Below are positions 6,622 through 40,772 of a stretch of 64,000 nucleotides of DNA, one piece after another. A model generated the notes under the pieces. The model searched no databases, was not told where the DNA came from, and saw only the letters and a program-made list of their open reading frames with translations. The stretch covers positions 128,001 through 192,000 of the forward strand of contig JAHPZH010000005.1 in the NCBI GenBank assembly GCA_019058315.1, in the 5' to 3' direction. Each line of letters opens with the position of its first letter. Position 1 is the stretch's first letter. This DNA is from Candidatus Helarchaeota archaeon. Its GTDB lineage: Archaea > Asgardarchaeota > Lokiarchaeia > Helarchaeales > RDOG01. The position numbers and the translations under genes are program-made.

Positions 6622-9600
6622 TAATATTAAGAACACTTCCATTTTGGGATTTAACAAAAAATGATCTATCGATTAATGAAATATTACTAAAAAAGGATTA
6701 TACCAGAGTTATCCCTTTTATTTTTAATAGGAAAGGAGATATTGGAAGTTTTGGAAGTGTCGAAGATACGTTTTGGGCTCTTTTGGCTCTCCATTTAATG
6801 CAAAAGCTAGATTCAATAAATAGAGATAAAATAAACAAGTTTATTTTTAGTTTTAGGTCTCCTATCGGGGGATTTTTTTCAAATAATGAAGATTATCCTG
6901 ATGTTAGAACTACATTTTATGCCATTTCTTGTTTACATCTCCTTGGTTTGGATTTAAATGAGGATGAGAAGCGAATAACATTTAATTATATAATGGAAAG
7001 CAGAACTAAAGAAGGTTTATTTCTTCATTGTAAGGATCCAAATTGTGATTGTCATCAAAAAGTTGCATTTCTCTATGCGTTTTTTGCAATTGGTAGCATA
7101 ATTTTATTAGATTTTCAAGAAAAATTAGAATCTGAATTCTTTGAAAAAATTACATCATTAGATTTTAATATTCATAATTTTGACACTTTCTTTTTCTTTT
7201 TAGCCATAAATCTGTTACAAATTGATATAAGAATGGAAAATAAAGACTTATTAAAAATTATTCACTTTTTTCAAAGAAAATCAGGTGGTTTTGGACGTAT
7301 TCAAGATACTTTTTGGATAATAACTTGGTTAAATTCTCAAAAGTTTTTACATCGAATTAATAAAGGAGTAGTAATAGAAAAATTTCTCGAAAATCGAAAA
7401 AATTTAGATGGAGGATATAATGAAAAAGGGGAATCAAACTCAACTTTAAAAGTTACAGCTCAAGCGATTATAATTCTTTCCATTCTTAATCCACTTGTTG
7501 TAAAGGAATTAGAAAATGAAATATTTAATCGATTAAGCGAGAACACTCATAATTTATTAAAACGTTTTTCTGATCAATTTTCTATAGAAGAGGAGCGAAT
7601 AGCCGAAATTATAGTTATGCTTAATTCAAAATATAAATGGTTGAATGTTAAATTATTAAAATTCGAATCTGTTTTCAATAAATATATTCAAAACTTAAAA
7701 TCTTCAGAACAAAAAATTGGCCAAAATATTTTAAAATCAGTTTATGATGCAAACCAGAAAAAAATTGACTTATTAGAGTTAGCTAATTCTCTTAATGTTA
7801 ATGAAGAAGAATTAATTCGAGTATTATATGATTTAATAGATGCCAAATTAATTTATGGTAATATTGAACCATCTCAACTCATAAAAGACTCTCATATGCT
7901 TGAAATAAGTTATCTACCTCAATATATTTTAGTAAGAAAAGATCTTCTTCCCTCTGACGAAGTTTCAGTTGAATTGGAAAATTTAAACTTACTTCAAGAA
8001 CAAATTATTGAAGGTATAAATAATCTCCAGAAATATCCAATAGATTTCAAAGAAAGTATAGAATATTTATTGGATATCGATGAAGTTGAAATCGCCAATT
8101 TTAAAATTACTAGACTTTTTAATGATTATTTAATCATTATTCAATCTAACGATGAGGATATTACTGATAAAATTTCAAATATGAAATATTTTAAATCGGA
8201 TATCACAAATCTTTACCAAAAATGGAAAAATGTCTCATCATCCACACTTAAGGCTCTACAAGATATAAATAATGACTTATCAGTAAAAATTTCTTCCAGA
8301 ATGAAAATTGTTACGGCATACAATGATTTAGAGCAATTTGTTAATTTTGTAAATGAAAATATTAACAAATTTAGAAAAAAAATTGAAGTATTTACAGCGA
8401 TTTTTTACAAAACATCCAGCAGAAATGAATTATCTCTTAAATCTCAAGAGTTTATAGAGTTTCTTGATGATATGGATGAAGAATTTAAAGAAATTGCCCA
8501 ATATATCCAAAAAAAGAGCAAGGAATTAGCTAGCATTACTAAGAAAACAAAATTATTTAAAAATGTCATTATTTCAGAAGATCCAATATTTCGTAAGAGA
8601 ATTATTAGCACTGATTTAAAGAAAAAACTACAACCTTTTGGAAATTGGTTAGAAAGCCAGTGGAGCCAAAAGAGAAATGATTCTTTCAAAAAAATTACAG
8701 AATTCAGATCCAAAATACATAAACATGAAGAATTGATTAAATATATTAACGAAATGGAAATTTCAATCATTGCACAATTAAAAAATATCAATAATTTGGA
8801 AAATCATGGAAAAATTTATTCAGGAACTGTAAAAATTATTAATTCCATAAACAAATCAGACAAATATATTTCTAATTTTATTAGAGATACAGGTAAAATC
8901 CTTGAGGATTTTGATTTAGTAGTTCAGGACATCCCAATTATTTGGTCAGATAAAATTAAACAATTTGGGAAGAAGATTCAATCTATAAGAGAAAAAATTG
9001 GAAAGAAAATAATTGATAAACTCGAAATTCAAAAAAAGAATGAATTTGAAGAAAAAATTGAAAATCAAATACAAAATTTTATAATGAAATTAAATGAACT
9101 TGATGAAATACAAAATTTTCATTGGAAGAAAATAAATATTAGTTATAATGAGCTTTTAAATAATCAACTTTCTCTTATAAAACAATCTATTTTTCAAAAA
9201 AATGAAGATTTAATTAGAATCTATAGGGAAAATTCGGAAAAATTTTCTGGATTTGGAGAGTTAAGTCTAATTCCATTAAGAAAATGGGAAAATTTTTACG
9301 AATCCTTCGATGATGGTTTACGAAAGAAAGAAAACGATATTTTAGATATTATATTAGTTCGAATTTTGTTTCAATTATCAACACCGAGGACTGGCGGGCG
9401 TGTAAATCTATCAAAACTCTCTGAGATTATTGGTCTAGATCAAAAAATTATCAATAAAAGGTTAAAGAAATTAGAAGAAAATTTTAAAATTGAAGTGAAT
9501 TTTATTGATAAAGAAAAAGTAATCCCGCTAACTGAAGAAAATCAGACACAACTTAGATTTGAGGATTTTGTTTTACAGTTTTCTCAAGAATTTAAAGAAT

Positions 9601-10493
9601 CTAATGAACAATTAAATCGCTTTTTTAATTATATCTGTGATCGAAAGAAAATTTCAGAAAATGAAGAAGAGATTAAAAGTAAATTAAACCAACTTTCCGA
9701 AAAAATACTAGATTGTGAGATGGAATTAAAGAAGAGTTATTCTATTCAAATGAAAAATGAATATAATAAAAATATTTTAAAGAATTTAGAAGATATAATA
9801 CAAAAATCAAAAGAGAATTTGAATAATATTCAATATATCTTAAATATTAGAGCGGAATATGACGATACTATCAAAATAGAATTTTTTAAAATACATAAGA
9901 AATTTGAAGAGATTTCTGATTTTAGTGCATTTGATGAATTAAAGACGTTTGAAGTATATAATGCTGAGATTGATGAATTTAATCAGTTGATTAACAATTT
10001 CAACATAAAATCTGATGAATATATAAAAAATCAATCTAAAAATATTGAAAATTTTAGTAATTATATTATTGATTTAAGAACTAAATATAACAATTCCCTT
10101 AAGAAATTAAAATCAGATTTAAGAATTCTCAACTCGCAGAAAATTCAGAAAATTAAAAGTAAAATAATTGTAAATTTGAAGGTGATTTTAAAAACAAAAA
10201 TCGAAGAGTACCAATTAAAATTTCAAGAAAATTTATACAAATTCGAAAATGAAGCGTATAAATTAAAGAAAAGGGAGGATATTGAATCCTTAAATGAAAT
10301 AATCAAAGACTTTTATGTAGAATTAAATCAACACCTAAAAAATACCCAACTAGAAATTGAGGACTTTTTAAAGAGTAATGAGACCAACTATAAATTGACC
10401 CGTCTTAAATACAAATTTGAAGATATTTTAAAATCTTGGAATCCAGAAGAAATTAAAGAGGGTTTACTTATATATCTAGGCTCATTTTTATAA
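6621..10493 (+). CDS. Large multidomain protein: prenyltransferase/squalene-oxidase alpha-alpha barrel repeats + PCI-like winged helices + long helical/coiled-coil regions
   Basis: The ORF track starts at TTG 6783, but the frame is open from 6618 and the extension encodes another barrel repeat (GSFGSVEDTFWALLAL, cf. GGFGRIQDTFWII, GGFF..PDVRTTFYAISCLHLLG). Winged-helix motifs IDLLELANSLNV..EELIRVLYDLIDAKLIYGNIE and GGRVNLSKLSEIIGLD. Exact start uncertain. Confidence 0.75.
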   Translation: MILRTLPFWDLTKNDLSINEILLKKDYTRVIPFIFNRKGDIGSFGSVEDTFWALLALHLMQKLDSINRDKINKFIFSFRSPIGGFFSNNEDYPDVRTTFYAISCLHLLGLDLNEDEKRITFNYIMESRTKEGLFLHCKDPNCDCHQKVAFLYAFFAIGSIILLDFQEKLESEFFEKITSLDFNIHNFDTFFFFLAINLLQIDIRMENKDLLKIIHFFQRKSGGFGRIQDTFWIITWLNSQKFLHRINKGVVIEKFLENRKNLDGGYNEKGESNSTLKVTAQAIIILSILNPLVVKELENEIFNRLSENTHNLLKRFSDQFSIEEERIAEIIVMLNSKYKWLNVKLLKFESVFNKYIQNLKSSEQKIGQNILKSVYDANQKKIDLLELANSLNVNEEELIRVLYDLIDAKLIYGNIEPSQLIKDSHMLEISYLPQYILVRKDLLPSDEVSVELENLNLLQEQIIEGINNLQKYPIDFKESIEYLLDIDEVEIANFKITRLFNDYLIIIQSNDEDITDKISNMKYFKSDITNLYQKWKNVSSSTLKALQDINNDLSVKISSRMKIVTAYNDLEQFVNFVNENINKFRKKIEVFTAIFYKTSSRNELSLKSQEFIEFLDDMDEEFKEIAQYIQKKSKELASITKKTKLFKNVIISEDPIFRKRIISTDLKKKLQPFGNWLESQWSQKRNDSFKKITEFRSKIHKHEELIKYINEMEISIIAQLKNINNLENHGKIYSGTVKIINSINKSDKYISNFIRDTGKILEDFDLVVQDIPIIWSDKIKQFGKKIQSIREKIGKKIIDKLEIQKKNEFEEKIENQIQNFIMKLNELDEIQNFHWKKINISYNELLNNQLSLIKQSIFQKNEDLIRIYRENSEKFSGFGELSLIPLRKWENFYESFDDGLRKKENDILDIILVRILFQLSTPRTGGRVNLSKLSEIIGLDQKIINKRLKKLEENFKIEVNFIDKEKVIPLTEENQTQLRFEDFVLQFSQEFKESNEQLNRFFNYICDRKKISENEEEIKSKLNQLSEKILDCEMELKKSYSIQMKNEYNKNILKNLEDIIQKSKENLNNIQYILNIRAEYDDTIKIEFFKIHKKFEEISDFSAFDELKTFEVYNAEIDEFNQLINNFNIKSDEYIKNQSKNIENFSNYIIDLRTKYNNSLKKLKSDLRILNSQKIQKIKSKIIVNLKVILKTKIEEYQLKFQENLYKFENEAYKLKKREDIESLNEIIKDFYVELNQHLKNTQLEIEDFLKSNETNYKLTRLKYKFEDILKSWNPEEIKEGLLIYLGSFL

Positions 10494-23566: not shown

Positions 23567-24295
23567 CTATTCTAATTCTTCAGGAATAATAAAGCATTGG
23601 ACTGTTAATAGGCAAAATATTGTCATAAATGCTTGCCATTCATAAAATGGGGACGATAAATAAAATGGTGTAATTGGATTAGGGATAAAGCGACCAGTTC
23701 TATTAGTCGGAGCGAGAATTACCCATAATAATCCACAAATTAGGCAATATATTAAAAATGAAAGGTAAATAACTAATAAAATCTTAGAAAACGTAATGGT
23801 TTTGCCCTCTGATAGATTATTTTTTAACATTAGAATTGCAGAAAAAAATGACATAAGAAAAAACCCTAAAAAAATAAATCCTGCATTTATAAGATGGATA
23901 AGCTTAAATATACTCGGTTCATAAAAGTTTGGGATTAATCCAATGAGTATTGAGCCAATTGAATATGTAAAGAAAAGAAATGCTATTAACTTTGCGTCAA
24001 ACTTGTTTATTTTAGAATATTTTTTATATATATATTGGATGATAGGTAATGTTAAAATTCCCAATGAAATAAAACCTAAACTAAAAAAAATAAATCCAAT
24101 TGGGTTTTCTTCAGGCCACCCCAATCGGCTTATCATAGAAGTCGTCCAGTTATACGGATAAATCGGAATATAAGGGTATAATAATCTCGCCATAAATAAA
24201 AAAAATAGAAATGTTCCAATTATGAAGGGTACATAATAATACGTAAGACTTTTTTTTGAAATCATCCCTTGAAAAATTTCTTTTAATTTCGGCAT
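23567..24295 (-). CDS. DUF998 / Frag1-DRAM-Sfk1-like polytopic membrane protein
   Basis: Likely start is ATG 24295 (MPKLKEIF), 1 nt after the GTPase stop; the ORF-track extension overlaps the GTPase. About 6 TM segments with family-like motifs MISRLG, IHLINA and FYEW. Confidence 0.65.
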   Translation of the reverse strand: MPKLKEIFQGMISKKSLTYYYVPFIIGTFLFFLFMARLLYPYIPIYPYNWTTSMISRLGWPEENPIGFIFFSLGFISLGILTLPIIQYIYKKYSKINKFDAKLIAFLFFTYSIGSILIGLIPNFYEPSIFKLIHLINAGFIFLGFFLMSFFSAILMLKNNLSEGKTITFSKILLVIYLSFLIYCLICGLLWVILAPTNRTGRFIPNPITPFYLSSPFYEWQAFMTIFCLLTVQCFIIPEELE

Positions 24296-24296
24296 A

Positions 24297-24839
24297 TCAA
24301 ATTCCTTTATGTATTGATTTTTGCCAATATTCAAATGCAAGTTTAGCCAATTCATTAAAAGCCTCCTCCACACCTTGACCTTCTTTGGCTGATGTTTCAA
24401 TATAGGGACAAGGAACTTGGTCTGCAAAAGATTTTGCATCTTTTTCACGTATAGTCCTCATAATCTCCAGATCCACTTTATTTCCAATGAGAACTATGGG
24501 AATCCTCCCTGTAAAGCTCCAAAGATCCTTTATCCATTTAAGAATATTAGGACTGAATGTTGTATAACGAGTTAAATCAAAGACAACTAAAGCTCCTGAA
24601 GCTTCTTTATAAAATGCTTGGCGTATAAATTTAAATCTTTCTTGTCCTGCAATATCCCAAATGGAGAGAGTTATTTGATTCTCGCCATTATTGAGGGATA
24701 CATCCTTCACAAAGAGGTCACAACCTACAGTCATCTTATATTCCTTTTGAAAGACATCATTGACGAATCTTTTAATCATAGTGGTTTTTCCAACAGCTGC
24801 ATCCCCTATCAATAAAATTTTAAATTTATATCTTACCAT
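24297..24839 (-). CDS. Rab-like small GTPase (Ras superfamily)
   Basis: Likely start ATG 24839 (MVRYKFK). G1 GDAAVGKT, G2 YKMTVG, G3 WDIAGQERF, G4 NKVD, G5 ETSAK; RabF-like VGCDL, TLSIW, RFKFIR, FYKEA, VVFDLT. No C-terminal Cys. Confidence 0.95.
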   Translation of the reverse strand: MVRYKFKILLIGDAAVGKTTMIKRFVNDVFQKEYKMTVGCDLFVKDVSLNNGENQITLSIWDIAGQERFKFIRQAFYKEASGALVVFDLTRYTTFSPNILKWIKDLWSFTGRIPIVLIGNKVDLEIMRTIREKDAKSFADQVPCPYIETSAKEGQGVEEAFNELAKLAFEYWQKSIHKGI

Positions 24840-24855
24840 TTTAAATACTCGATTT

Positions 24856-26127
24856 TTATTTTTTCTTCGTTGAAAATGCAGCATAAGCTTTTAAATATAC
24901 TTTAACCGGGATTATTTTTGGATTACGTCTAAAACTAGCCGGAATTTGAGCACCACAGCGAGAACATAAATCAGAACTTCTAAGCCAATCTTTAAATGCG
25001 TCTGCATGGGCAGGATGTTTACAATTAGGGCATAAGATTATACCCCTTCCTTTATCTGAAGGTTTAGGTAATTGAAAACAGAATATGCATTTAAAATCCT
25101 CAACGGTTATTACTCCTGCTACTGGCAATAATTCTTTTAATTTTCGACTAATTTGAGGCTTTTTTTTCTGATCAGGCACTTGAACACGGGATTGCCTTTG
25201 AACTCTTGTAATTCGAACTGTGGGTTTTTGGCGACGAGGTCTTGATACAGTAACAGTGGGCTTTTGACTAGGGCGACGATTTGTTGGAATATTTGATCTT
25301 GGTCTAATAGGGGTTCTCCTTCGTGTAGTTGGGATATTAAAATCCCTTAATTGTGGAGGAGGTCTCATTTCTGTAGTTATCTCTGGCATAGTATAGGGTG
25401 CAGTTGATTTCCCATACCTAATTGATAAAATTAATGAATAAATACATAAGAAAATTACAATTAAACTAGGATTTTGGTGAGTAGGTTTCAATGGAAAATA
25501 AAAAAAGTCAATATAATAATAAAAAAGGATAAGATAGACAAATTCAACCATAAATATATAAAAAGTACATAGATTTCCAAACTTTCTACCAGTTGTCGAT
25601 TTTTGGCCTATATGGACTACGTGATATTTTTTAAAACATGAATATAGTGAATATAAAGAATAAAGAAAGTAGGGAGCGGCAAATATAATATTCCATGTAC
25701 TCAAATATAATTCGCTCCCAGTCAAGATATTCCATTCCAGAATATTAGTAAAATTACCCCACAAGCTAAATAACATTCCCATAGATAGCGTGCCGGAAAT
25801 GAAAAAAGAAGTATTATGTGGTGAATTGAATTCACGGTGGTATTTTATTAATGAGAAAAATTTGATAGTAAAACAAAACCAAAATCCTATCAATAACCAA
25901 GAAATAAACAGAGCGGAAACATTTCCGATAGCTCTATTAAATTCTAAAGAAAAATAAAGAATATATACAAACACATTTATTGTATTTAAATTGAAATAAT
26001 CATAAATTATCATAAAAGCTAGAAATGTGAGATAATCGTTCTTCGATACAATTAAAGAAGTGGTATTTATTACCGCAATTATTAAAAAAAGCAAAAATAT
26101 GATAAAATACCATCGTTTTTTAACCAA
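24856..26127 (-). CDS. Polytopic membrane protein with C-terminal RING(-H2-like) finger; putative membrane E3 ligase
   Basis: About 6-7 TM helices (aa ~5-240), an Arg/Pro/Thr-rich linker, then CIFC-x15-CPNCKHPAHADAFKDWLRSSDLCSRC with the RING Trp. Confidence 0.82.
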   Translation of the reverse strand: MVKKRWYFIIFLLFLIIAVINTTSLIVSKNDYLTFLAFMIIYDYFNLNTINVFVYILYFSLEFNRAIGNVSALFISWLLIGFWFCFTIKFFSLIKYHREFNSPHNTSFFISGTLSMGMLFSLWGNFTNILEWNILTGSELYLSTWNIIFAAPYFLYSLYSLYSCFKKYHVVHIGQKSTTGRKFGNLCTFYIFMVEFVYLILFYYYIDFFYFPLKPTHQNPSLIVIFLCIYSLILSIRYGKSTAPYTMPEITTEMRPPPQLRDFNIPTTRRRTPIRPRSNIPTNRRPSQKPTVTVSRPRRQKPTVRITRVQRQSRVQVPDQKKKPQISRKLKELLPVAGVITVEDFKCIFCFQLPKPSDKGRGIILCPNCKHPAHADAFKDWLRSSDLCSRCGAQIPASFRRNPKIIPVKVYLKAYAAFSTKKK

Positions 26128-26164
26128 GAAATAAATACCACCAGGGATTTATTAGCATTATCAT

Positions 26165-26968
26165 TTACTCTTCATCATATTCAAGATATATCGCTTTTCC
26201 CTCGATAATCGGGTCTATAAACTTCAGTAGATCGGGTAATATTTTAGCACTTAATGCACCTTTTACTTCGAAAGGAACAGCAAACCATTTTCTAGTTTTC
26301 AAGTTTGCCTTAAAAATATTAAATCCAAATGAAGTTCCATCAATCATGTATGGGTCAATTACAAGAGCAATAGATTTTTTCCATAGTCTTTGATATCTAC
26401 TTTGAGTACCAAAATCTTCTGTGCTCATAAAAAGACCGTAGGATGGGTGTGAATGATACCACCCACATATAAATAAATTTCTGTTTCTTATATCATTAAA
26501 TGCCCTTACGTAATTTTTATAGTCCTTAATTTCAGCATATATGGCCGAACCGTGCCCCATTGGATAGGCATCTTCTATATGGAGCGCTTTACCGTTTTCT
26601 AATTTTCCAGCTAAAAGCCCTATTACTTCAACCCATTCATCCCTAGGAATGTTAGAATTAGCATATTTAAGTGCATGACTAGCAATTTTTAGAACTGATC
26701 CGACTGAAATTTGGATAATATCTGCACTTTTTGAAACTTCGATAGGGAGCGGTTTTTCAACTGATTTTTCAATAATAACAGTCTTTTTCTTTGTAGGTTT
26801 AGAAATATCTATAGTAGGTTCCTTTTCCTCAGATTTTAATTCGGTATATATTTCCTCAAGTAACTCTTTTTTTAACTCTTCTTTAATTTTCTTTTTAAAT
26901 GCTCTTACATCAATATGCTTGCTATTAGCATCATTATTATTATCCATTAAAAATCCTCTTTTTACCAT
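26165..26968 (-). CDS. JAB1/MPN+ (JAMM) metalloprotease, Rpn11/CSN5-like deubiquitylase
   Basis: EVIGLLAG, GWYHSHPSYGLFMSTEDFGTQ (HxH-x7-S-x2-D), ALVIDP; short charged N-terminal helix. Confidence 0.94.
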   Translation of the reverse strand: MVKRGFLMDNNNDANSKHIDVRAFKKKIKEELKKELLEEIYTELKSEEKEPTIDISKPTKKKTVIIEKSVEKPLPIEVSKSADIIQISVGSVLKIASHALKYANSNIPRDEWVEVIGLLAGKLENGKALHIEDAYPMGHGSAIYAEIKDYKNYVRAFNDIRNRNLFICGWYHSHPSYGLFMSTEDFGTQSRYQRLWKKSIALVIDPYMIDGTSFGFNIFKANLKTRKWFAVPFEVKGALSAKILPDLLKFIDPIIEGKAIYLEYDEE

Positions 26969-27489
26969 TTTTTATTAGCATACTTTTTAACTAAATGTTT
27001 TACTTTCTTATCGAACTCTTTAGGATCCTTCATCATTTCAACTGCTGCTTTTTTATTGAACACATCAGTTGGATTAATGAATTTTCCTCTCGTATTCAAC
27101 ATAGCTATAATTGCCTCTACAACAGTAACTGCAGTCTTTGAAGGACTCCAACCACCTTTTTTACCTATATAATTTGGATCAATAAGCGCAAGGCAAATAT
27201 TTCTTTGTCCTGGATATTCATGAGGTTTTGGCCAAAAATTGGGGTGCCATAAACCTGTATGCATACGTACAAATGGAGGATGTCGTGGATATTCAGCGGG
27301 AAATCTCAATTCAAGTCTAAAAAGACCTCCTTGATAGGGAGTTTTCTTAGGTCCTTTTATAGTTATGGCAAGATGATCAAGACTTTTTCTTTTAGGGTTG
27401 AATGGTTTTAACTGAACGATACTTCCAGTTTTTAATAATTTTTTTAGTTGTGCAACATCTTGAGAGATTCGACTGCTTCTTAAACTCAT
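26962..27489 (-). CDS. Ubiquitin-conjugating enzyme E2
   Basis: IKGPKKTPYQGGLFRLELRFPAEYPRHPPFV, WHPN, active-site NICL, WSPS; SD AAGGTGA upstream. Confidence 0.96.
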   Translation of the reverse strand: MSLRSSRISQDVAQLKKLLKTGSIVQLKPFNPKRKSLDHLAITIKGPKKTPYQGGLFRLELRFPAEYPRHPPFVRMHTGLWHPNFWPKPHEYPGQRNICLALIDPNYIGKKGGWSPSKTAVTVVEAIIAMLNTRGKFINPTDVFNKKAAVEMMKDPKEFDKKVKHLVKKYANKKW

Positions 27490-27622
27490 TTTATCACCTT
27501 ATTTTTCTATTAAGATTTTCTAAATTATTTAAATTATTAAAAATTTTCATTAAATTTATAATTTGTTTTATATTTTCACCTAAATAATTCAAATAAAAAT
27601 TAAAATTATACATTTTTTCTCA

Positions 27623-28843
27623 TCATGTGATAACTAAAGTTATAAAAATTTCTCCACCCTTAAATCCGACAGCAGTAATAAGTTCTAGTTGTCTTAAGTC
27701 ATTTTTTTTCGGTGTTAGGTCTAAATCAATTTCTTTTACCATATCGAAATCCATTATTGTTAACATCGGTTCCATTTCTGGGTCGGGTTTAAAGCCTTTA
27801 TTTATTAGCAAATTAATAATATCATGCATTGGAGCTTTATGGTGGATATTAAGTTTCACACGCCTAACATCATTACTACATTGAATACAATTTGGATTTC
27901 TCTTTTTTTCAATGGAATAAAATTTCATTGTCATACCATTATAAATAACATAAGATTTAATTGGTTCTCCTAATTTCTTATTTCCTGCAATCCAATTTAA
28001 AATTTTAATTGTTTCATGTGACTGGAGAGATGCAATCACTGCATTAATGGTTATTATCCCCGGATCATGCCTATCCAAAAGTTTAACTACTTCGGATTGA
28101 GTAAATAGGGGTAAAAAATTAAATTTTTTTACAAGTTCATTTGCTTCCTTTCGAATGAAGTTAATCTCCTTACTTTTTTTTGGGTCAGGATCTCGATTAT
28201 ATTTTTCATTAAAAAACATAGTGGATTTAATCACACAATGAACTCTTTTTCTAGGTATTCCTACAACAGTACAAGCTGCCATTTCATCCATTTCTGAAGG
28301 AGGGGGTGGATAACATTCGAAACAAGCATTTTCATATGGAAATATTGTATATACATGACCATTATATCCAGAGACACCGCCATCAAGAAGTGGCTTATTA
28401 AAACGTACACATTGTGCATTTAAATTGAGTCTAGCATTTATTGAGTCCAATCCACCAACAACAACATCAGCTGCTGCGTAAACTTCCGGTTCAAGTCTTT
28501 CGAGTGAAGTATGATAACTTTTAATTGTAATATTGGGATTAATTTTTTTCAATTTCTTCATAGCGGCTGTTGCTTTGGGCTCACCCATTTTAGCATCAGA
28601 AAATAAAATTTGTCTATTTAGATTAGAGTATTCTATTATATCCAAATCCACAAGATCGAGATGACCAACTCCCAACATTGCCAGATTTTTAGCAACTTCG
28701 CACCCAAGACCTCCTACACCCGCAATTAACACTCTTGAATCTTTAATTATTTTTTGTCTCCAGCCAGCAAGCCTAAATTGACGGTTATATAATTCTCTTT
28801 CTTGTGAATTTAATTCTTTGTTAAAAAAATCAGATTCATCCAT
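27623..28843 (-). CDS. Ubiquitin-like activating enzyme E1 (Uba2/Uba3-type)
   Basis: YNRQ, GVGGLGCE, VDLDIIEYSNLNRQILF, Zn pairs CFEC/CIQC, catalytic ACTVVGIPRKRVHC like Uba2/Uba3 CT-x4-P-x4-HC; ~80-aa C-terminal domain (possible UFD). Confidence 0.95.
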   Translation of the reverse strand: MDESDFFNKELNSQERELYNRQFRLAGWRQKIIKDSRVLIAGVGGLGCEVAKNLAMLGVGHLDLVDLDIIEYSNLNRQILFSDAKMGEPKATAAMKKLKKINPNITIKSYHTSLERLEPEVYAAADVVVGGLDSINARLNLNAQCVRFNKPLLDGGVSGYNGHVYTIFPYENACFECYPPPPSEMDEMAACTVVGIPRKRVHCVIKSTMFFNEKYNRDPDPKKSKEINFIRKEANELVKKFNFLPLFTQSEVVKLLDRHDPGIITINAVIASLQSHETIKILNWIAGNKKLGEPIKSYVIYNGMTMKFYSIEKKRNPNCIQCSNDVRRVKLNIHHKAPMHDIINLLINKGFKPDPEMEPMLTIMDFDMVKEIDLDLTPKKNDLRQLELITAVGFKGGEIFITLVIT

Positions 28844-28976
28844 TTTTTACACCAATTTTTAGATAGATAACTCATCTCAATAATATCAATTTTATTAAAA
28901 AAAAAGGTTGAAAGAAAGTAATTTTAGATTTAAAAAGTAATAATTTTTTATATTTAAGTTACAATAGAATTTAGTT

Positions 28977-29330
28977 TTACCCTGCTGTGCTAGCGGGAAT
29001 AAGAAGTACAGTGTCTCCGTCTTTTACATTATAGTCCATTAAAGGACTTGCGTCATCCATTGTGACTCCACCAAATGATAAGTGAAAATCACCTGGATTT
29101 AACCCAAATAGATTTCCTACAGTTTGCTTAATGGCACTAATATTATTGCCAGTATCTACCATTAATTTTTGCTTTTTCTCGCCCGGTCCAATCGTACTCA
29201 TAAAGAAAAGATTAACTTGATCACCACTAACTCCCGCTTTTGGTGTTTTAGATGCTATACCAGGACTTTTAGATGATGGTTCTTCTAATTCTTCATCAAA
29301 ATCTTCTGATTCCTCTAACATATTTAACAT
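28977..29330 (-). CDS. Ubiquitin-like modifier with acidic disordered N-terminal extension and C-terminal -AG
   Basis: FHLSFGGVTMDDASPLMDYNVKDGDTVLLIPASTAG aligns with ubiquitin [36 protein letters not shown]; first gene of the E1-E2 cluster. Confidence 0.9.
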   Translation of the reverse strand: MLNMLEESEDFDEELEEPSSKSPGIASKTPKAGVSGDQVNLFFMSTIGPGEKKQKLMVDTGNNISAIKQTVGNLFGLNPGDFHLSFGGVTMDDASPLMDYNVKDGDTVLLIPASTAG

Positions 29331-29460: not shown

Positions 29461-30663
29461 ATGAATTATCATTTCGTGAATTATATGAAAGATAAACAAC
29501 CCCCAAAATATCAGATCGCCGATAAAACCCCAACTTCCGAAGAATACCCTCCTATAAGCGAGAAATTGCTTAAAAAATTACAAAAAGAACGATTAAATGT
29601 TGAAAAAGAGTGGAAAAAGCTAGAAGAAGAACGGAATAAATTGGAGAAAGTCATTAAAAAAATGGAAAGTTATGGAGCTACAATCGAAGATCTTGAAAAG
29701 AAGAGAAAAGAAAAAGAATATGAAGTAAAGGATCTTTTAAGGGAAAAAGATCAGTTAAATAATGAATTAGATAGAATAAAAAAAGAAATTGATAATGAAA
29801 AAAGTAGATTAGCTTCCCAAAAAGACAAGATGGATATTATGAAAGAAAAAGTCCGTTCAAAAGATAAAGAATTAGATAAAAAAATGAGTGAGATAAAAAG
29901 TAAAGAAATAGAATTAATTCGTTCAAAAGAACCTGTGGAGAAAGAAATTGCAAATTTAGAAAGACAGAAGGACAGAGAGAAATCACAATTAGAAGATCTT
30001 GGTAAAAAAATTGGGAAATATAAAAATGATGTTAAAGATCTCCAAGAAGATAGAGATCGTTTAAAAAATGAGCGGGATAAATTAGAAAAAGAGGTTGTAC
30101 GAGAGAAGCAATTACTTTCTGATGAGAGAAATAAAATTGAGAAAGAAAAAGATGACTTAAGCAGGAAAAAGAAAGACTTAGATAAAAGAATTAATGATTT
30201 AGAGGGGAAGAAAAAGGATTTAAGAAATATAAAAGATGAGCTTAGTAAAGAAAAAAATGACTTAATAAAAACTAGAGAGAAAGAACAAGCACGGGTGAGG
30301 GATTTAACCAATAAAATTCCAAAGTTGGAAAGCGAAATAAATTCATTAGAGAAAAAAATTCAAGATTTAAATGTTAAATTGAGCGATTTAAAGAACAATA
30401 AAAGATTATTAGAAAATGAAATTAATAGAATGTCAAAAGAGATAGAAAATAATAAGGCCAAAATGCAAAACGAAATGAAAAATATTGAAAATGAAAAAAC
30501 AAAGATAAATAGCGAAAAAGATAATATCAAACGTGAACGGGATAAATTAAAAGAAGAAAAAAGTAATTTAGAAAATGAACGTAAAAATTTAGAAGAACAA
30601 ATAAGAAAAATGAAAACTATTAAGAAAGAAAAAATAAGAACTAAAACCCCTTTAGGTTATTAG
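29461..30663 (+). CDS. Long coiled-coil protein
   Basis: ~350 aa of K/E/L/I heptad-like sequence, almost free of Pro/Gly, with internal quasi-repeats; divergent from the Ubl gene. Confidence 0.8.
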   Translation: MNYHFVNYMKDKQPPKYQIADKTPTSEEYPPISEKLLKKLQKERLNVEKEWKKLEEERNKLEKVIKKMESYGATIEDLEKKRKEKEYEVKDLLREKDQLNNELDRIKKEIDNEKSRLASQKDKMDIMKEKVRSKDKELDKKMSEIKSKEIELIRSKEPVEKEIANLERQKDREKSQLEDLGKKIGKYKNDVKDLQEDRDRLKNERDKLEKEVVREKQLLSDERNKIEKEKDDLSRKKKDLDKRINDLEGKKKDLRNIKDELSKEKNDLIKTREKEQARVRDLTNKIPKLESEINSLEKKIQDLNVKLSDLKNNKRLLENEINRMSKEIENNKAKMQNEMKNIENEKTKINSEKDNIKRERDKLKEEKSNLENERKNLEEQIRKMKTIKKEKIRTKTPLGY

Positions 30664-34168: not shown

Positions 34169-34837
34169 TTAATCAAACTCTATACCACGTGACTTATAAA
34201 CCAAATATACATAGAGGACACCGCCGAGAAAACCACCAACATGAGCCCAATAAGCAACGCCAGACCCACCTGCGATTATTCCATATAAAACTTGTAAGGC
34301 AAAATAGAATATTACTGCTACCCATGCTCTTGTTCTCCAAAGGAACCTACCAGCATAGACCAAAGCTTGATTCTCCGGAAATAGTAGTGCATACGCCCCC
34401 ATGACTCCAAAGATTGCGCCTGAGGCGCCTATTGCAGGTATAGTTGGATCCATGAACACTGAAGCGATCAATCCATAAATTAAATTTGCGACTATACCTG
34501 AAAGAAAATACATTATTAGAAAAGATATACGCCCTAATATAAAGGAGTCCCGTCCTAAACTTCCCTCAATATCGAGTGAAAATAGGAAAAAATAAAACAT
34601 GTTAAATCCAATGTGAAAAATATCTCCATGAATAAACAATGAAGTAATTATTGTATAGAGTTTTCTTCCATTAAAAAATTCACTAGCGGTGAAACCAAGA
34701 TTAATAAAATGGATGTCAGGCTCACCCAAAATCCAATTTGCCATTACATTGACTCGTATAAAGACAATTATATTAATTATAATTATACTAATGGTAACTA
34801 TTGGTTTTCTAAAATATCTAGGAAAAACAATTGCCAT
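34169..34837 (-). CDS. Rhomboid-family intramembrane serine protease
   Basis: FIHGDIFHIGFNM, catalytic GASG, AYWAHVGG. Confidence 0.95.
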   Translation of the reverse strand: MAIVFPRYFRKPIVTISIIIINIIVFIRVNVMANWILGEPDIHFINLGFTASEFFNGRKLYTIITSLFIHGDIFHIGFNMFYFFLFSLDIEGSLGRDSFILGRISFLIMYFLSGIVANLIYGLIASVFMDPTIPAIGASGAIFGVMGAYALLFPENQALVYAGRFLWRTRAWVAVIFYFALQVLYGIIAGGSGVAYWAHVGGFLGGVLYVYLVYKSRGIEFD

Positions 34838-38942: not shown

Positions 38943-40772
38943 TTATTTATTTAATTCCGCTAATTCTTTCGCCATTTTTGCACATAATTCGGAATTTTTC
39001 TTATCATTAATAGCAGAGAATAAATTAGTAGCGATATTATAATAAAGGACAGCTTGTTTGAACTTTTGTTGTAATTCTGCATCATAGGCTCTCTTCAAAT
39101 TTTTTTTAATTTTTTCATCCTCTATATCCTCAAGGGGAATAATAGGAACAAATTCTTCAACACGTGCTTCTATATCAGCTAATTTATTAAGTTCATCGAT
39201 TTTCATTATGCATAATTCTCTATTTTTAGTATCATTATAATCTGTAAACTTTCCACACGCTTCTGAATAGAATTTTAAAGCCCGATCATATAATTCTAAT
39301 CTCTCAGCTATGGCAGCGTTCTTCAACATATTTTTTATTTCTTCATTTGGGATTTCTTCTTCAGGAATTAATAATTTCTCTCCTTCTTCACTTGATTCGA
39401 TTGAAATAGGTTTTTCTTCGATTTGTAGCCTTTCATTTAGTTCATTAATTTTCATTCTGCATTTTGTAAAACTATCTTGATCTTCATTAATTGCAAATTT
39501 TTCGGCTGCTTCGAAATAAAATTTTAATGCTTTGTCATAAATTTCTAGCTTTTCAGCAAGAGCTGCGTTCTTTAATAAGCTCTTAATTCTCGGATCCGAA
39601 ATTAATTCTTCATCTATTAATAATTCTACCTTTTCTTCAACAGCTGAACTTATTTGTGAAAAAGCTGTTTCTTCTGAAATTTCTTCTAAAATAGGGGGTT
39701 GTACGGGACTAATTTCTACTTTTTTAGCCTCTTCTTTAACAACTTTTGGTTTACTTGCATCTAATTGTTGCTTTTTAATTAATTCTTTTATCCTTTCTGA
39801 ACATTTATTAGAACTTTCACGATCTTTATTTATTAAAAATAATCCTGCTGCGGAATTATAATATGTAATTGCTTCAGCATATCTTTTTGCATTTTCTGCT
39901 TGATATGCTTTTTTAATTATGGACCTCGTTTTTTCATCATAAATTAACGCCTCATCAATTATAGGTTCAATTTCCGCTAAACTTTCATCAATTGCTACAA
40001 TAGGGACAGGTTTGGTTTTTTGCTCCTCAATTTCTTGAAGCACTAATTCTTCTTTATATAAAGCCATTTCCTTTGATTTATTGGCATATTGATAGCAAAT
40101 TTGTGCATTATCGTAATCCCCTAACCCGTTAAAAAGCCCTGCGGCAACACCGTAATAGATAGTAGCTTCTTCAAATTGGCTATTATTAATAGCATATTCA
40201 GCATTTTCCAAAGCTTCAATCACCCTATCTCTAATCACTTCTGCATCTCTGATATTTACACCTGGAAGTTCTCTTACCTTCATTGCATCTACGAGAGGAT
40301 TAGAAATTTGTGGTTTTGGTATTTTTGGAGTTTCTAAAGTAGTTCCTCTATCTTTTCTTTCTTCTACAATAATTTTTAGATCTTGATTTGCATTTTGAAT
40401 AATTCTATCTAATACTGGTGCAAATGGTTGGAATAACTGTTCATTAAGACCGTCTGCGGTTAATTTATTACCATAACCTTGGACTAGAAATTCGGAAATG
40501 ATTTCTTCCATAATTGGACCAATATCAGCTTCATTTAAATTAAAATCAGCTGCTACTGTTAAAATCATGGTTTCGGTTGATAGATAAAAAAATTTGAACG
40601 ATCCCATAGTAACGGACCTAATAGCTTCCCCACTAAGCTCTTCAGAAAAATTGAAGAATGCTGTTATAAAACCGCCGAATAAATCCTTGTCTATTTTGTT
40701 GAATTCTCCATAATTCTGTTGTAATACGCATAAGCTATTATTTTTATTGATAATCCAGACGTTAGAAATCAA
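38943..40772 (-). CDS. Longin-domain protein with five three-helix MIT/TPR-like repeats
   Basis: N-terminal longin-like MISNVWIINK..LCVL...DKDLFGGFITAFFNFSEEL..IRSV..G.FKFFY; five A..AE....Y..A..(Y/F)Y..AA..F...D......C units separated by acidic linkers. Confidence 0.75.
   Translation of the reverse strand: MISNVWIINKNNSLCVLQQNYGEFNKIDKDLFGGFITAFFNFSEELSGEAIRSVTMGSFKFFYLSTETMILTVAADFNLNEADIGPIMEEIISEFLVQGYGNKLTADGLNEQLFQPFAPVLDRIIQNANQDLKIIVEERKDRGTTLETPKIPKPQISNPLVDAMKVRELPGVNIRDAEVIRDRVIEALENAEYAINNSQFEEATIYYGVAAGLFNGLGDYDNAQICYQYANKSKEMALYKEELVLQEIEEQKTKPVPIVAIDESLAEIEPIIDEALIYDEKTRSIIKKAYQAENAKRYAEAITYYNSAAGLFLINKDRESSNKCSERIKELIKKQQLDASKPKVVKEEAKKVEISPVQPPILEEISEETAFSQISSAVEEKVELLIDEELISDPRIKSLLKNAALAEKLEIYDKALKFYFEAAEKFAINEDQDSFTKCRMKINELNERLQIEEKPISIESSEEGEKLLIPEEEIPNEEIKNMLKNAAIAERLELYDRALKFYSEACGKFTDYNDTKNRELCIMKIDELNKLADIEARVEEFVPIIPLEDIEDEKIKKNLKRAYDAELQQKFKQAVLYYNIATNLFSAINDKKNSELCAKMAKELAELNK

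What the first reader, a model, noticed from the sequence alone, without database searches (positions are those of the whole stretch)
23567..29330. Membrane-targeted ubiquitin-like conjugation operon coupled to a Rab-like GTPase: Ubl-E1-E2-JAMM-TM/RING E3-GTPase-DRAM-like protein
Seen: seven co-oriented genes with gaps of 133, 133, -7, 37, 16 and 1 nt, forming a complete write/erase cascade. Known: archaeal Ub-E1-E2-RING-JAB operons exist (Caldiarchaeum, Asgard), typically with a small soluble RING and sometimes next to ESCRT genes. Unusual here: the E3 is a polytopic membrane protein, and the operon continues into a Rab-like GTPase and a second polytopic membrane protein. Inference: a proto-ERAD or membrane-protein sorting system in which Ubl tagging at the membrane is linked to a GTPase switch, or the GTPase is itself the substrate. 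This is the best candidate for an undescribed system in the window.
Basis: partly seen in the sequence, partly recalled or inferred. Interest (0 to 1): 0.9.

Follow-up and report, generated by a model that had tools for sequence, protein, structure and literature searches.

The report
Asgard membrane-anchored ubiquitin-like tagging operon

Summary
The seven ORFs and six gaps are exactly as described, but the conserved unit is five genes: Ubl-E1-E2-JAMM-6TM/RING. It recurs in Lokiarchaeia, Hodarchaeales, Heimdallarchaeaceae and Borrarchaeum-like genomes with all catalytic residues invariant. The GTPase and last gene (DUF998) follow it in only 1 of 52 other loci, a near relative; the GTPase is a relocated duplicate in a genome with about 70-100 small GTPases. 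The tag ends in Ala-Gly and lacks ubiquitin's Ile44, Lys48 and Lys63 equivalents, which argues against ERAD-type degradation. The RING has Glu (Ala here) at ligand 6 and docks canonically on this E2 in a model (0.62 vs 0.01). The conserved partner is instead the divergent coiled-coil gene (29461-30663), head-to-head with a Ubl gene in 45 of 48 genomes. It shares a rare KTP motif with the Ubl arm and is the best substrate or scaffold candidate. The E1-E2 cluster appears in a 2017 table, and this scan noted the operon before in other genomes; I found no paper on the single-Gly tag, membrane E3 or motif. Ca. Lokiarchaeum ossiferum has the operon; P. syntrophicum MK-D1 lacks it. Verdict: new variant of a known kind.

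The parts
28977..29330 (-). Ubiquitin-like modifier, 117 aa: acidic disordered N-arm with an I-x-S-K-T-P motif, beta-grasp core, tail ending Ala116-Gly117 (= ubiquitin Gly75-Gly76); Ser/Val/Asp at the Ile44/Lys48/Lys63 positions
   Evidence: PF00240; gapless alignment to ubiquitin, offset 41; terminal Ala-Gly invariant in 26/26; 20 of 39 stand-alone homologues have 1-3 variable extra residues after the Gly
27623..28843 (-). E1 activating enzyme, 406 aa, UBA2/UBA3-like single chain; catalytic Cys191, Zn pairs Cys174/177 and Cys319/322, C-terminal extension
   Evidence: ThiF; best PDB hits SUMO E1 UBA2 2e-39, MoeB 8e-36, NEDD8 E1 UBA3 5e-35, far above UBA5 2e-18; motifs invariant over 20 loci from several classes
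26962..27489 (-). E2 conjugating enzyme, 175 aa; HPN 82-84, catalytic Cys99, 7-residue inserts before and after the Cys
   Evidence: UQ_con; PDB hits Ubc15/UBE2R about 1e-14 to 1e-16; invariant in 41 rows
26165..26968 (-). JAMM isopeptidase, Rpn11/CSN5 type; Glu114, His172, His174, Ser182, Asp185
   Evidence: JAB; best PDB hit 6fjv, an Rpn11-like protein that I take to be the Caldiarchaeum enzyme, 4e-17; invariant
24856..26127 (-). Membrane RING protein, 423 aa: 6-TM core (N-in, C-in), basic disordered linker (about 250-325), RING with ligands C347 C350 C366 C369 H374 [Glu in the family, Ala377 here] C388 C391 and Trp381
   Evidence: AlphaFold pLDDT 84, TM domain alone 89; fold hits are RING/U-box for the C-terminal domain; charge profile and ligand counts; E2 docking 0.62 vs 0.01
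29461..30663 (+).
   Evidence: Beside the operon in most Lokiarchaeia loci; single copy, head-to-head with a Ubl gene in 45/48 genomes; motif statistics
24297..24839 (-). Rab-like small GTPase, 180 aa, G1-G5 motifs present, no C-terminal Cys; lineage-specific neighbour, not a conserved part
   Evidence: Ras; 68% identical to G000:C7:87448, which keeps the ancestral neighbours; beside the cascade in 1/52 loci
23567..24295 (-). DUF998-family membrane protein, 242 aa; lineage-specific neighbour
   Evidence: Orthologue hits PF06197; homologues in only 11/150 class genomes, none of the 11 fetched loci shows cascade genes

Best explanation
An ancient Asgard conjugation system, separate from the known di-Gly ubiquitin/ESCRT cluster, that attaches its own single-Gly modifier to proteins at the cytoplasmic face of the membrane. 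(1) The JAMM trims any residues after Gly117 and later removes the tag (inferred from variable tails and the Caldiarchaeum Rpn11 precedent). (2) The E1, probably a homodimer, adenylates Gly117 and forms a Cys191 thioester (motifs shown, activity inferred). (3) The tag passes to E2 Cys99 (inferred). (4) The 6-TM protein holds its RING in the cytoplasm on a long basic tether and binds the charged E2 (topology and docking modelled, not measured). (5) The tag lacks the Ile44 patch and Lys48/Lys63, so it most likely acts as a SUMO/NEDD8-like regulatory or tethering mark rather than a degradation signal (inferred). (6) The likeliest acceptor is the Lys of the [IVM]-x-[STE]-K-T-P motif at both ends of the divergent coiled-coil protein and in the tag's own N-arm, which would allow SUMO2-like chains (inference, about 40%; a docking or phosphorylation role is the alternative). 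The GTPase and DUF998 genes are recent neighbours in one Helarchaeales branch.
For: Five-gene order kept in 33 of 34 E1-orthologue loci of Lokiarchaeia (the 34th contig ends in E2) and in 17 of 20 Ubl-anchored loci of other classes, one family rearranged. Named homologues: Hodarchaeales, Heimdallarchaeaceae, Ca. Borrarchaeum, CR_4, L. ossiferum. All catalytic residues invariant. Terminal Gly aligns with ubiquitin Gly76 and is invariant. E2-RING model: score 0.62, best control 0.01; mark reached by 58 of 80 solved and 2 of 110 mismatched pairs; runs agree in at least 96% of contacts, partner pLDDT at least 88; interface is the canonical helix 1/loop 4/loop 7 plus the family-specific E2 insert 108-111. 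E2-RING is a textbook pair, so the pass may come from likeness to solved structures. KTP: 11.9 and 6.7 per 1000 aa in Ubl and coiled-coil homologues vs 0.156 in the genome; extended motif in 3 of 4776 ORFs, two being this Ubl and this coiled-coil. A separate di-Gly Ub-E1-E2-small RING-ESCRT cluster lies on C10 of the same genome.
Against: No activity or expression was measured. RING ligand 6 is Glu, not Cys/His, and Ala in this branch; no Arg follows the last Cys. The coiled-coil gene was not found in the Heimdallarchaeaceae, Hodarchaeales or f19 genomes searched (0/26, 0/16, 0/10) although their Ubl arms keep the motif. The extended motif was fitted on these same families, so only its rarity elsewhere is a control. 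Kin genomes are not independent samples.
Confidence: 0.62

Rival explanations
1. Proto-ERAD without the GTPase: the 6-TM domain recognises damaged membrane proteins and the tag sends them to Cdc48/proteasome.
For: Architecture (polytopic domain, linker, C-terminal RING) parallels Hrd1/gp78 (own knowledge); best E2 hits are Ubc15/UBE2R/UBE2G-type enzymes with a post-Cys insert; Hodarchaeales loci add a RING-less paralogue of the TM domain directly downstream, as in heteromeric membrane ligases; some Ubl fusions carry vWA or HerA ATPase domains.
Against: No Ile44, Lys48 or Lys63 equivalent. The TM family is closed: 108 representatives at 50% identity, all full-length ones apparently of the same TM-RING or TM-only type. 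The system is missing from the closed P. syntrophicum MK-D1 chromosome, unlike a housekeeping quality-control pathway.
Confidence: 0.17
2. One reading: a duplicated GTPase and a DUF998 protein were recently recruited as switch or substrate of the membrane ligase.
For: Gaps of 16 and 1 nt; both genes kept at 82-86% identity in GCA_013375355.1; the GTPase copy sits on a long branch (0.49), as after a change of function; DUF998 homologues lie beside small GTPases in 3 of 11 other loci.
Against: Absent from 51 of 52 loci, including the other Helarchaeales (L034, L035, L083; also L086); 103 Ras-family matches in this genome, 1.4-2.2% of ORFs; the run also continues into carAB 76 nt later; the GTPase has no KTP motif.
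Confidence: 0.1
3. In this Helarchaeales branch the RING has lost ligase activity (Glu to Ala at ligand 6) and serves only as a membrane anchor for the E2.
For: Glu in 126/130 and 74/75 homologues; Ala only in the window and three Helarchaeales relatives.
Against: The other seven ligands, Trp381 and the E2-contact residues are kept; the Ala is shared by proteins only 47-54% identical, so the domain stayed conserved long after the change.
Confidence: 0.1

Closest known systems
Caldiarchaeum subterraneum Ub-E1-E2-srfp-Rpn11 operon (PMC5654768, PMC6043591) and the Helarchaeia Ub-ESCRT cascade (10.1101/2023.07.25.550441)
   Same: Compact operon of modifier, single-chain E1, HPN-type E2, RING and Rpn11-like JAMM; pro-tail trimming likely
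   Different: Single-Gly tag with SUMO-like arm and no Ile44/Lys48/Lys63; 6-TM E3 instead of a small soluble RING; Glu/Ala ligand; no ESCRT linkage; a canonical cluster exists separately in the same genome
Asgard E1/E2 gene clusters I/II listed by Hennell James et al. 2017 and the Lokiarchaeota 'Ub region' of Hatano et al. 2022 (PMC9192718)
   Same: Very probably the same locus: their Table S2 lists CR_4 E1 OLS16232 and the CR_4 orthologue of this E2 is OLS16231.1; the GC14_75 orthologue of this E2 is in Hatano's alignment
   Different: In the text I could read they describe no single-Gly tag, membrane E3 or coiled-coil partner; Hatano's Loki 'Ub' for two-hybrid tests was another family (Lokiarch_37670, di-Gly). 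I could not see the figures.
Eukaryotic SUMO and NEDD8 pathways
   Same: E1 nearest UBA2/UBA3; disordered N-arm with a Lys motif; no Lys48 chain site
   Different: Single Gly, JAMM instead of SENP/NEDP1, no separate SAE1/NAE1 subunit in the operon, membrane RING, no sequence orthology shown
UFM1 pathway and Asgard Ufm1 homologues (PMC12962969)
   Same: Tail spacing I-P-x4-G with one Gly; ligase at a membrane
   Different: No PF03671 match; E1 not UBA5-like; E2 has HPN; E3 is a RING; a different Asgard protein (L143) looks more UFM1-like and does not match this family
ERAD/membrane ligases Hrd1, gp78, Doa10/MARCH
   Same: Polytopic domain plus cytoplasmic RING; ligand order resembles C4HC3 (RING-CH)
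   Different: No sequence or fold match found for the TM domain; RING is C-terminal (N-terminal in MARCH); tag unsuited to Lys48 chains

Membership tests
Archaeal Ub-E1-E2-RING-JAMM operon | Modifier, E1, E2, RING and JAMM genes clustered, catalytic residues intact | tested here: met
Archaeal Ub-E1-E2-RING-JAMM operon | Di-Gly C-terminus of the modifier | tested here: not met
   Ala-Gly invariant in 26/26; one homologue (L035) has a second Gly after it
Archaeal Ub-E1-E2-RING-JAMM operon | Small soluble RING E3 (srfp) | tested here: not met
   6-TM fusion in all intact loci
Archaeal Ub-E1-E2-RING-JAMM operon | Sequential thioester transfer and isopeptide formation | not testable with these tools
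   needs reconstitution
RING E3 | RING fold | tested here: met
   top Foldseek rows all RING/U-box, E 0.05-0.6, none under 0.001; VIA Z 7.7, rmsd 3.9, 74 aligned to 3lrq
RING E3 | Eight Cys/His zinc ligands | tested here: not met
   seven present; ligand 6 is Glu in 126/130, Ala here
RING E3 | Binds the E2 by the canonical surface | tested here: inconclusive
   model supports (0.62 vs 0.01) but a textbook pair can pass from memory
UFM1 system | Modifier matches the Ufm1 profile | tested here: not met
   0/26 members at E<=1; none in genome at E<=10; note the profile finds nothing over cut-off in 251 Asgard genomes, so identity with the structure-defined Asgard Ufm1 set is not strictly excluded
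UFM1 system | UBA5-type E1, UFC1-type E2, UFL1-type E3 | tested here: not met
ERAD ligases (Hrd1/Doa10) | Homologous membrane domain | tested here: inconclusive
   no match by Pfam, HMM, Foldseek or VIA-align; best Z 8.8 covers one helical hairpin only
ERAD ligases (Hrd1/Doa10) | Lys48 chains read through the Ile44 patch | tested here: not met
   Val/Ile at 48 and Ser at 44 in 26/26
Rab GTPases | Ras-family G domain | tested here: met
Rab GTPases | C-terminal prenylation cysteines | tested here: not met
   no Cys in the C-terminal tail
DRAM/Frag1/Sfk1 | Match to the Frag1 profile | tested here: not met
   no Pfam hit for the window protein; orthologue hits DUF998 only; that DUF998 shares a clan with Frag1 is from memory

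The most novel reading that the evidence does not exclude
Asgard archaea, including Hodarchaeales, run a second, orthogonal modifier pathway with a single-Gly tag, a membrane-embedded E3 of its own family and a consensus acceptor motif (hydrophobic-x-S/T/E-K-T-P) that tags and tethers a long coiled-coil protein at the membrane and builds chains through the tag's N-arm: a prokaryotic counterpart of SUMO-style, motif-directed conjugation that predates eukaryotes.
Probability: 0.35. Interest if true: 0.85.

Novelty: new variant of a known kind. Interest (0 to 1): 0.64.

Why it matters
It would show that splitting of ubiquitin-like tagging into separate pathways, and membrane-embedded ligases, began in archaea rather than in early eukaryotes. 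The characterised archaeal cascades all use di-Gly ubiquitin and a small soluble RING. All parts are small, expressible and present in a cultivated organism (Ca. Lokiarchaeum ossiferum, Ubl = NEF87_002996, annotated hypothetical), while MK-D1 lacks them and gives a natural comparison. The shared KTP motif gives a precise first substrate to test.

Tried and rejected
GTPase or DUF998 as conserved members: rejected. UFM1 membership: rejected by sequence; the weak PF03671 hit in G336 is a GTPase 130 kb from the Ubl genes. Fold searches for the TM domain gave only generic helical hairpins; the ESM Atlas gave only the family's own cluster or nothing: no evidence either way. Ala at RING ligand 6 as a sequencing error: rejected, shared by three other assemblies. 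Promoter/terminator scan: counts equal to shuffles, and the scan is for bacterial promoters. Spang et al. 2015 was not held; figures of the 2017 and 2022 papers are not readable. Literature searches for a single-Gly Asgard modifier or an Asgard membrane E3/ERAD found nothing relevant, but subscription papers are missing. No E1/E2 tree with eukaryotic sequences was built and the Ubl was not folded (both prediction jobs went to the E3).
Full report
Observation. The seven minus-strand ORFs are present and the gaps are 133, 133, -7, 37, 16 and 1 nt once the GTPase is started at 24839 and the last gene at 24295. Pfam names ubiquitin, ThiF, UQ_con, JAB, a weak RING and Ras. The last gene has no hit, but its 82%-identical orthologue is DUF998. 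The same-strand run continues 76 nt later into carA-carB, so tight spacing does not mark the end of a functional unit. The host is an Asgard archaeon: the nearest E3 homologue (80%) is labelled Ca. Helarchaeota, so Helarchaeales is inferred.

What is conserved. The E1 has orthologues at about 60-70% identity in most of 150 class genomes. In 33 of 34 orthologous loci the order Ubl-E1-E2-JAMM-TM/RING is kept; the last contig ends in E2. The Ubl family was found in 97 of 251 phylum genomes, in seven families besides the window's own, and not in several others such as f12 (0/59). Seventeen of 20 loci from other classes hold the cascade, one family as E2-JAMM-E3 followed by Ubl-E1. Named members include Hodarchaeales, Heimdallarchaeaceae, Ca. 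Borrarchaeum, CR_4 and Ca. Lokiarchaeum ossiferum. A closed 4,324,194-bp genome, the size of P. syntrophicum MK-D1, has no Ubl or E3 match and only a sister E2, so the system is dispensable. These genomes are kin, so counts are descriptive.

What is not conserved. Of 52 loci with at least 1.5 kb downstream of the E3, one has the GTPase and DUF998 genes: GCA_013375355.1, whose proteins are 80-91% identical to the window's. Other Helarchaeales loci lack them. The genome holds 103 Ras-family matches. The window's GTPase is 68% identical to a copy on C7; homologues in five relatives are closer to that copy (68-77% vs 58-65%) and four of them share its neighbours. In a tree the window copy and its near twin form a long branch inside that family. 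It is a relocated duplicate. DUF998 homologues are patchy (11/150) and none of the fetched loci shows cascade genes.

The modifier. It aligns without gaps to ubiquitin at offset 41. Gly117 equals Gly76 and Ala116 replaces Gly75; both are invariant. Twenty of 39 stand-alone homologues carry 1-3 variable residues after the Gly, which points to trimming there. Ile44, Lys48, Lys63 and Lys29 are replaced by Ser, Val/Ile, mostly Asp, and Thr. An acidic disordered arm precedes the fold. The tail spacing recalls UFM1, but no member matches PF03671, and a different Asgard protein (L143) looks UFM1-like and does not match this family's profile. The genome also has a canonical di-Gly Ub-E1-E2-small RING-ESCRT cluster on C10 and a sister E1-E2-JAMM cluster on C6.

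The enzymes. The E1 is nearest SUMO and NEDD8 E1 catalytic subunits, with MoeB at a similar score and UBA5 far lower; Cys191 and both Zn pairs are invariant. The E2 keeps HPN, Cys99 and Trp114 with two inserts. The JAMM is nearest an Rpn11-like structure (6fjv) and keeps all five catalytic residues. In Caldiarchaeum such an enzyme matures pro-ubiquitin (PMC5654768).

The E3. AlphaFold gives six membrane-length helices in the family core, a disordered linker and a compact C-terminal domain. Basic residues cluster at the N-terminus, loops 2-3 and 4-5 and the C-terminus, which puts the RING in the cytoplasm. The C-terminal domain matches RING/U-box folds. Ligand 6 is Glu in 126 of 130 homologues and Ala in four Helarchaeales, two of which lack the GTPase. 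An E2-RING model scores 0.62 against a best control of 0.01; the mark was reached by 58 of 80 solved and 2 of 110 mismatched pairs, runs agree in at least 96% of contacts and partner pLDDT is at least 88. The interface is canonical and includes the family-specific E2 insert, but this is a textbook pair and the pass may reflect likeness. The membrane domain has no detectable relative outside the family; that is inconclusive for ERAD homology. Hodarchaeales loci add a RING-less paralogue of this domain right after the E3, so a second membrane subunit may exist there, but it is not DUF998.

The missed partner. The divergent coiled-coil gene at 29461-30663 is single-copy and head-to-head with a Ubl gene in 45 of 48 genomes, even where the E1 genes lie elsewhere. 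It was not found in the Heimdallarchaeia-type families searched. Its two ends and the Ubl arm share a KTP motif: 38/39 and 66/74 homologues, 43- and 76-fold over the genome background. The extended form occurs in 3 of 4776 ORFs, two being these proteins; the pattern was fitted on these families. By analogy with the SUMO consensus, which also sits in SUMO2's own arm (own knowledge), the Lys is the likeliest acceptor; a docking or phosphorylation site is the alternative.

Mechanism and odds. Most likely (0.62) a separate single-Gly conjugation pathway acting at the inner face of the membrane as a regulatory or tethering mark; steps are inferred from invariant residues, gene order and one model, none is measured. 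Rivals: degradative quality control (0.17), recent recruitment of the GTPase in one branch (0.10), a catalytically dead RING in this branch (0.10).

Novelty. The kind of operon is known, and this E1-E2 cluster was very probably tabulated in 2017 (CR_4 OLS16232/OLS16231) and counted in the Lokiarchaeota Ub region in 2022, where a different Ubl was tested. I found no paper on the single-Gly tag, the membrane E3 or the KTP partner, within the limits of the library. First-stage readers of this scan noted the operon, tail and Glu ligand in other genomes; these are unchecked notes, not support. The KTP link was not found among them. Verdict: new variant of a known kind, interest 0.64.

Noticed in passing
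G000:C10:181556-182236 (L089): The same Ubl, with an intact Ala-Gly end, fused behind a roughly 145-aa domain that looks longin/uDENN-like by eye (no Pfam hit): a possible route from this tag to GTPase regulators.
   Followed up: partly
L100:12072-13814, L101:1910-3718, L046:9691-11448, L037:13076-13876: Ubl of this family fused C-terminally to a HerA/DUF87 ATPase, to a vWA protein, or to a 2-TM protein without terminal Gly, all next to the operon.
   Followed up: partly
L097-L099, L107, L108, L111: Hodarchaeales operons have two tandem Ubl genes and a RING-less 6-TM paralogue after the E3; Heimdallarchaeaceae loci have a 192-223 aa membrane gene at the same place, relationship untested.
   Followed up: partly
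G000:C6:265358-272367 (L137): Sister cluster: Cys-rich protein, E1, E2, JAMM, a second ThiF gene and a vWA-RING protein, with no Ubl gene; its E2 type is the only one found in MK-D1.
   Followed up: partly
G000:C10:102910-109963: Canonical di-Gly ubiquitin, E1, E2, small RING, UEV-like, Vps4-like and two ESCRT-III-like genes, identified by eye from translations.
   Followed up: no
L124, L126, L132: DUF998-like genes lie beside small GTPases of different subfamilies in 3 of 11 loci, more than the roughly 0.4 expected; may be a loose pairing.
   Followed up: no
L143 (G224:C224:10294-10446): Short ORF with a UFM1-like core and I-V-P-R-D-x-x-G tail plus three residues: candidate true Asgard UFM1 homologue.
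   Followed up: partly
L082:11732-12922: carA of the near relative is only 46% identical to the window's while neighbours are 80-91%, and has Asn where the window has the glutaminase Cys.
   Followed up: no
window 38943-40772 (-): 609-aa protein with a MIT domain hit (4e-7), a possible ESCRT-III binder.
   Followed up: no
window 6783-10493 (+): 1236-aa protein with an N-terminal prenyltransferase alpha-alpha toroid hit, followed by a weak KAP NTPase gene, in a low-GC stretch.
   Followed up: no
window 34169-34837 (-): Rhomboid protease 5 kb upstream; adjacent to the coiled-coil gene in the near relative L082 but not matched in other loci.
   Followed up: partly
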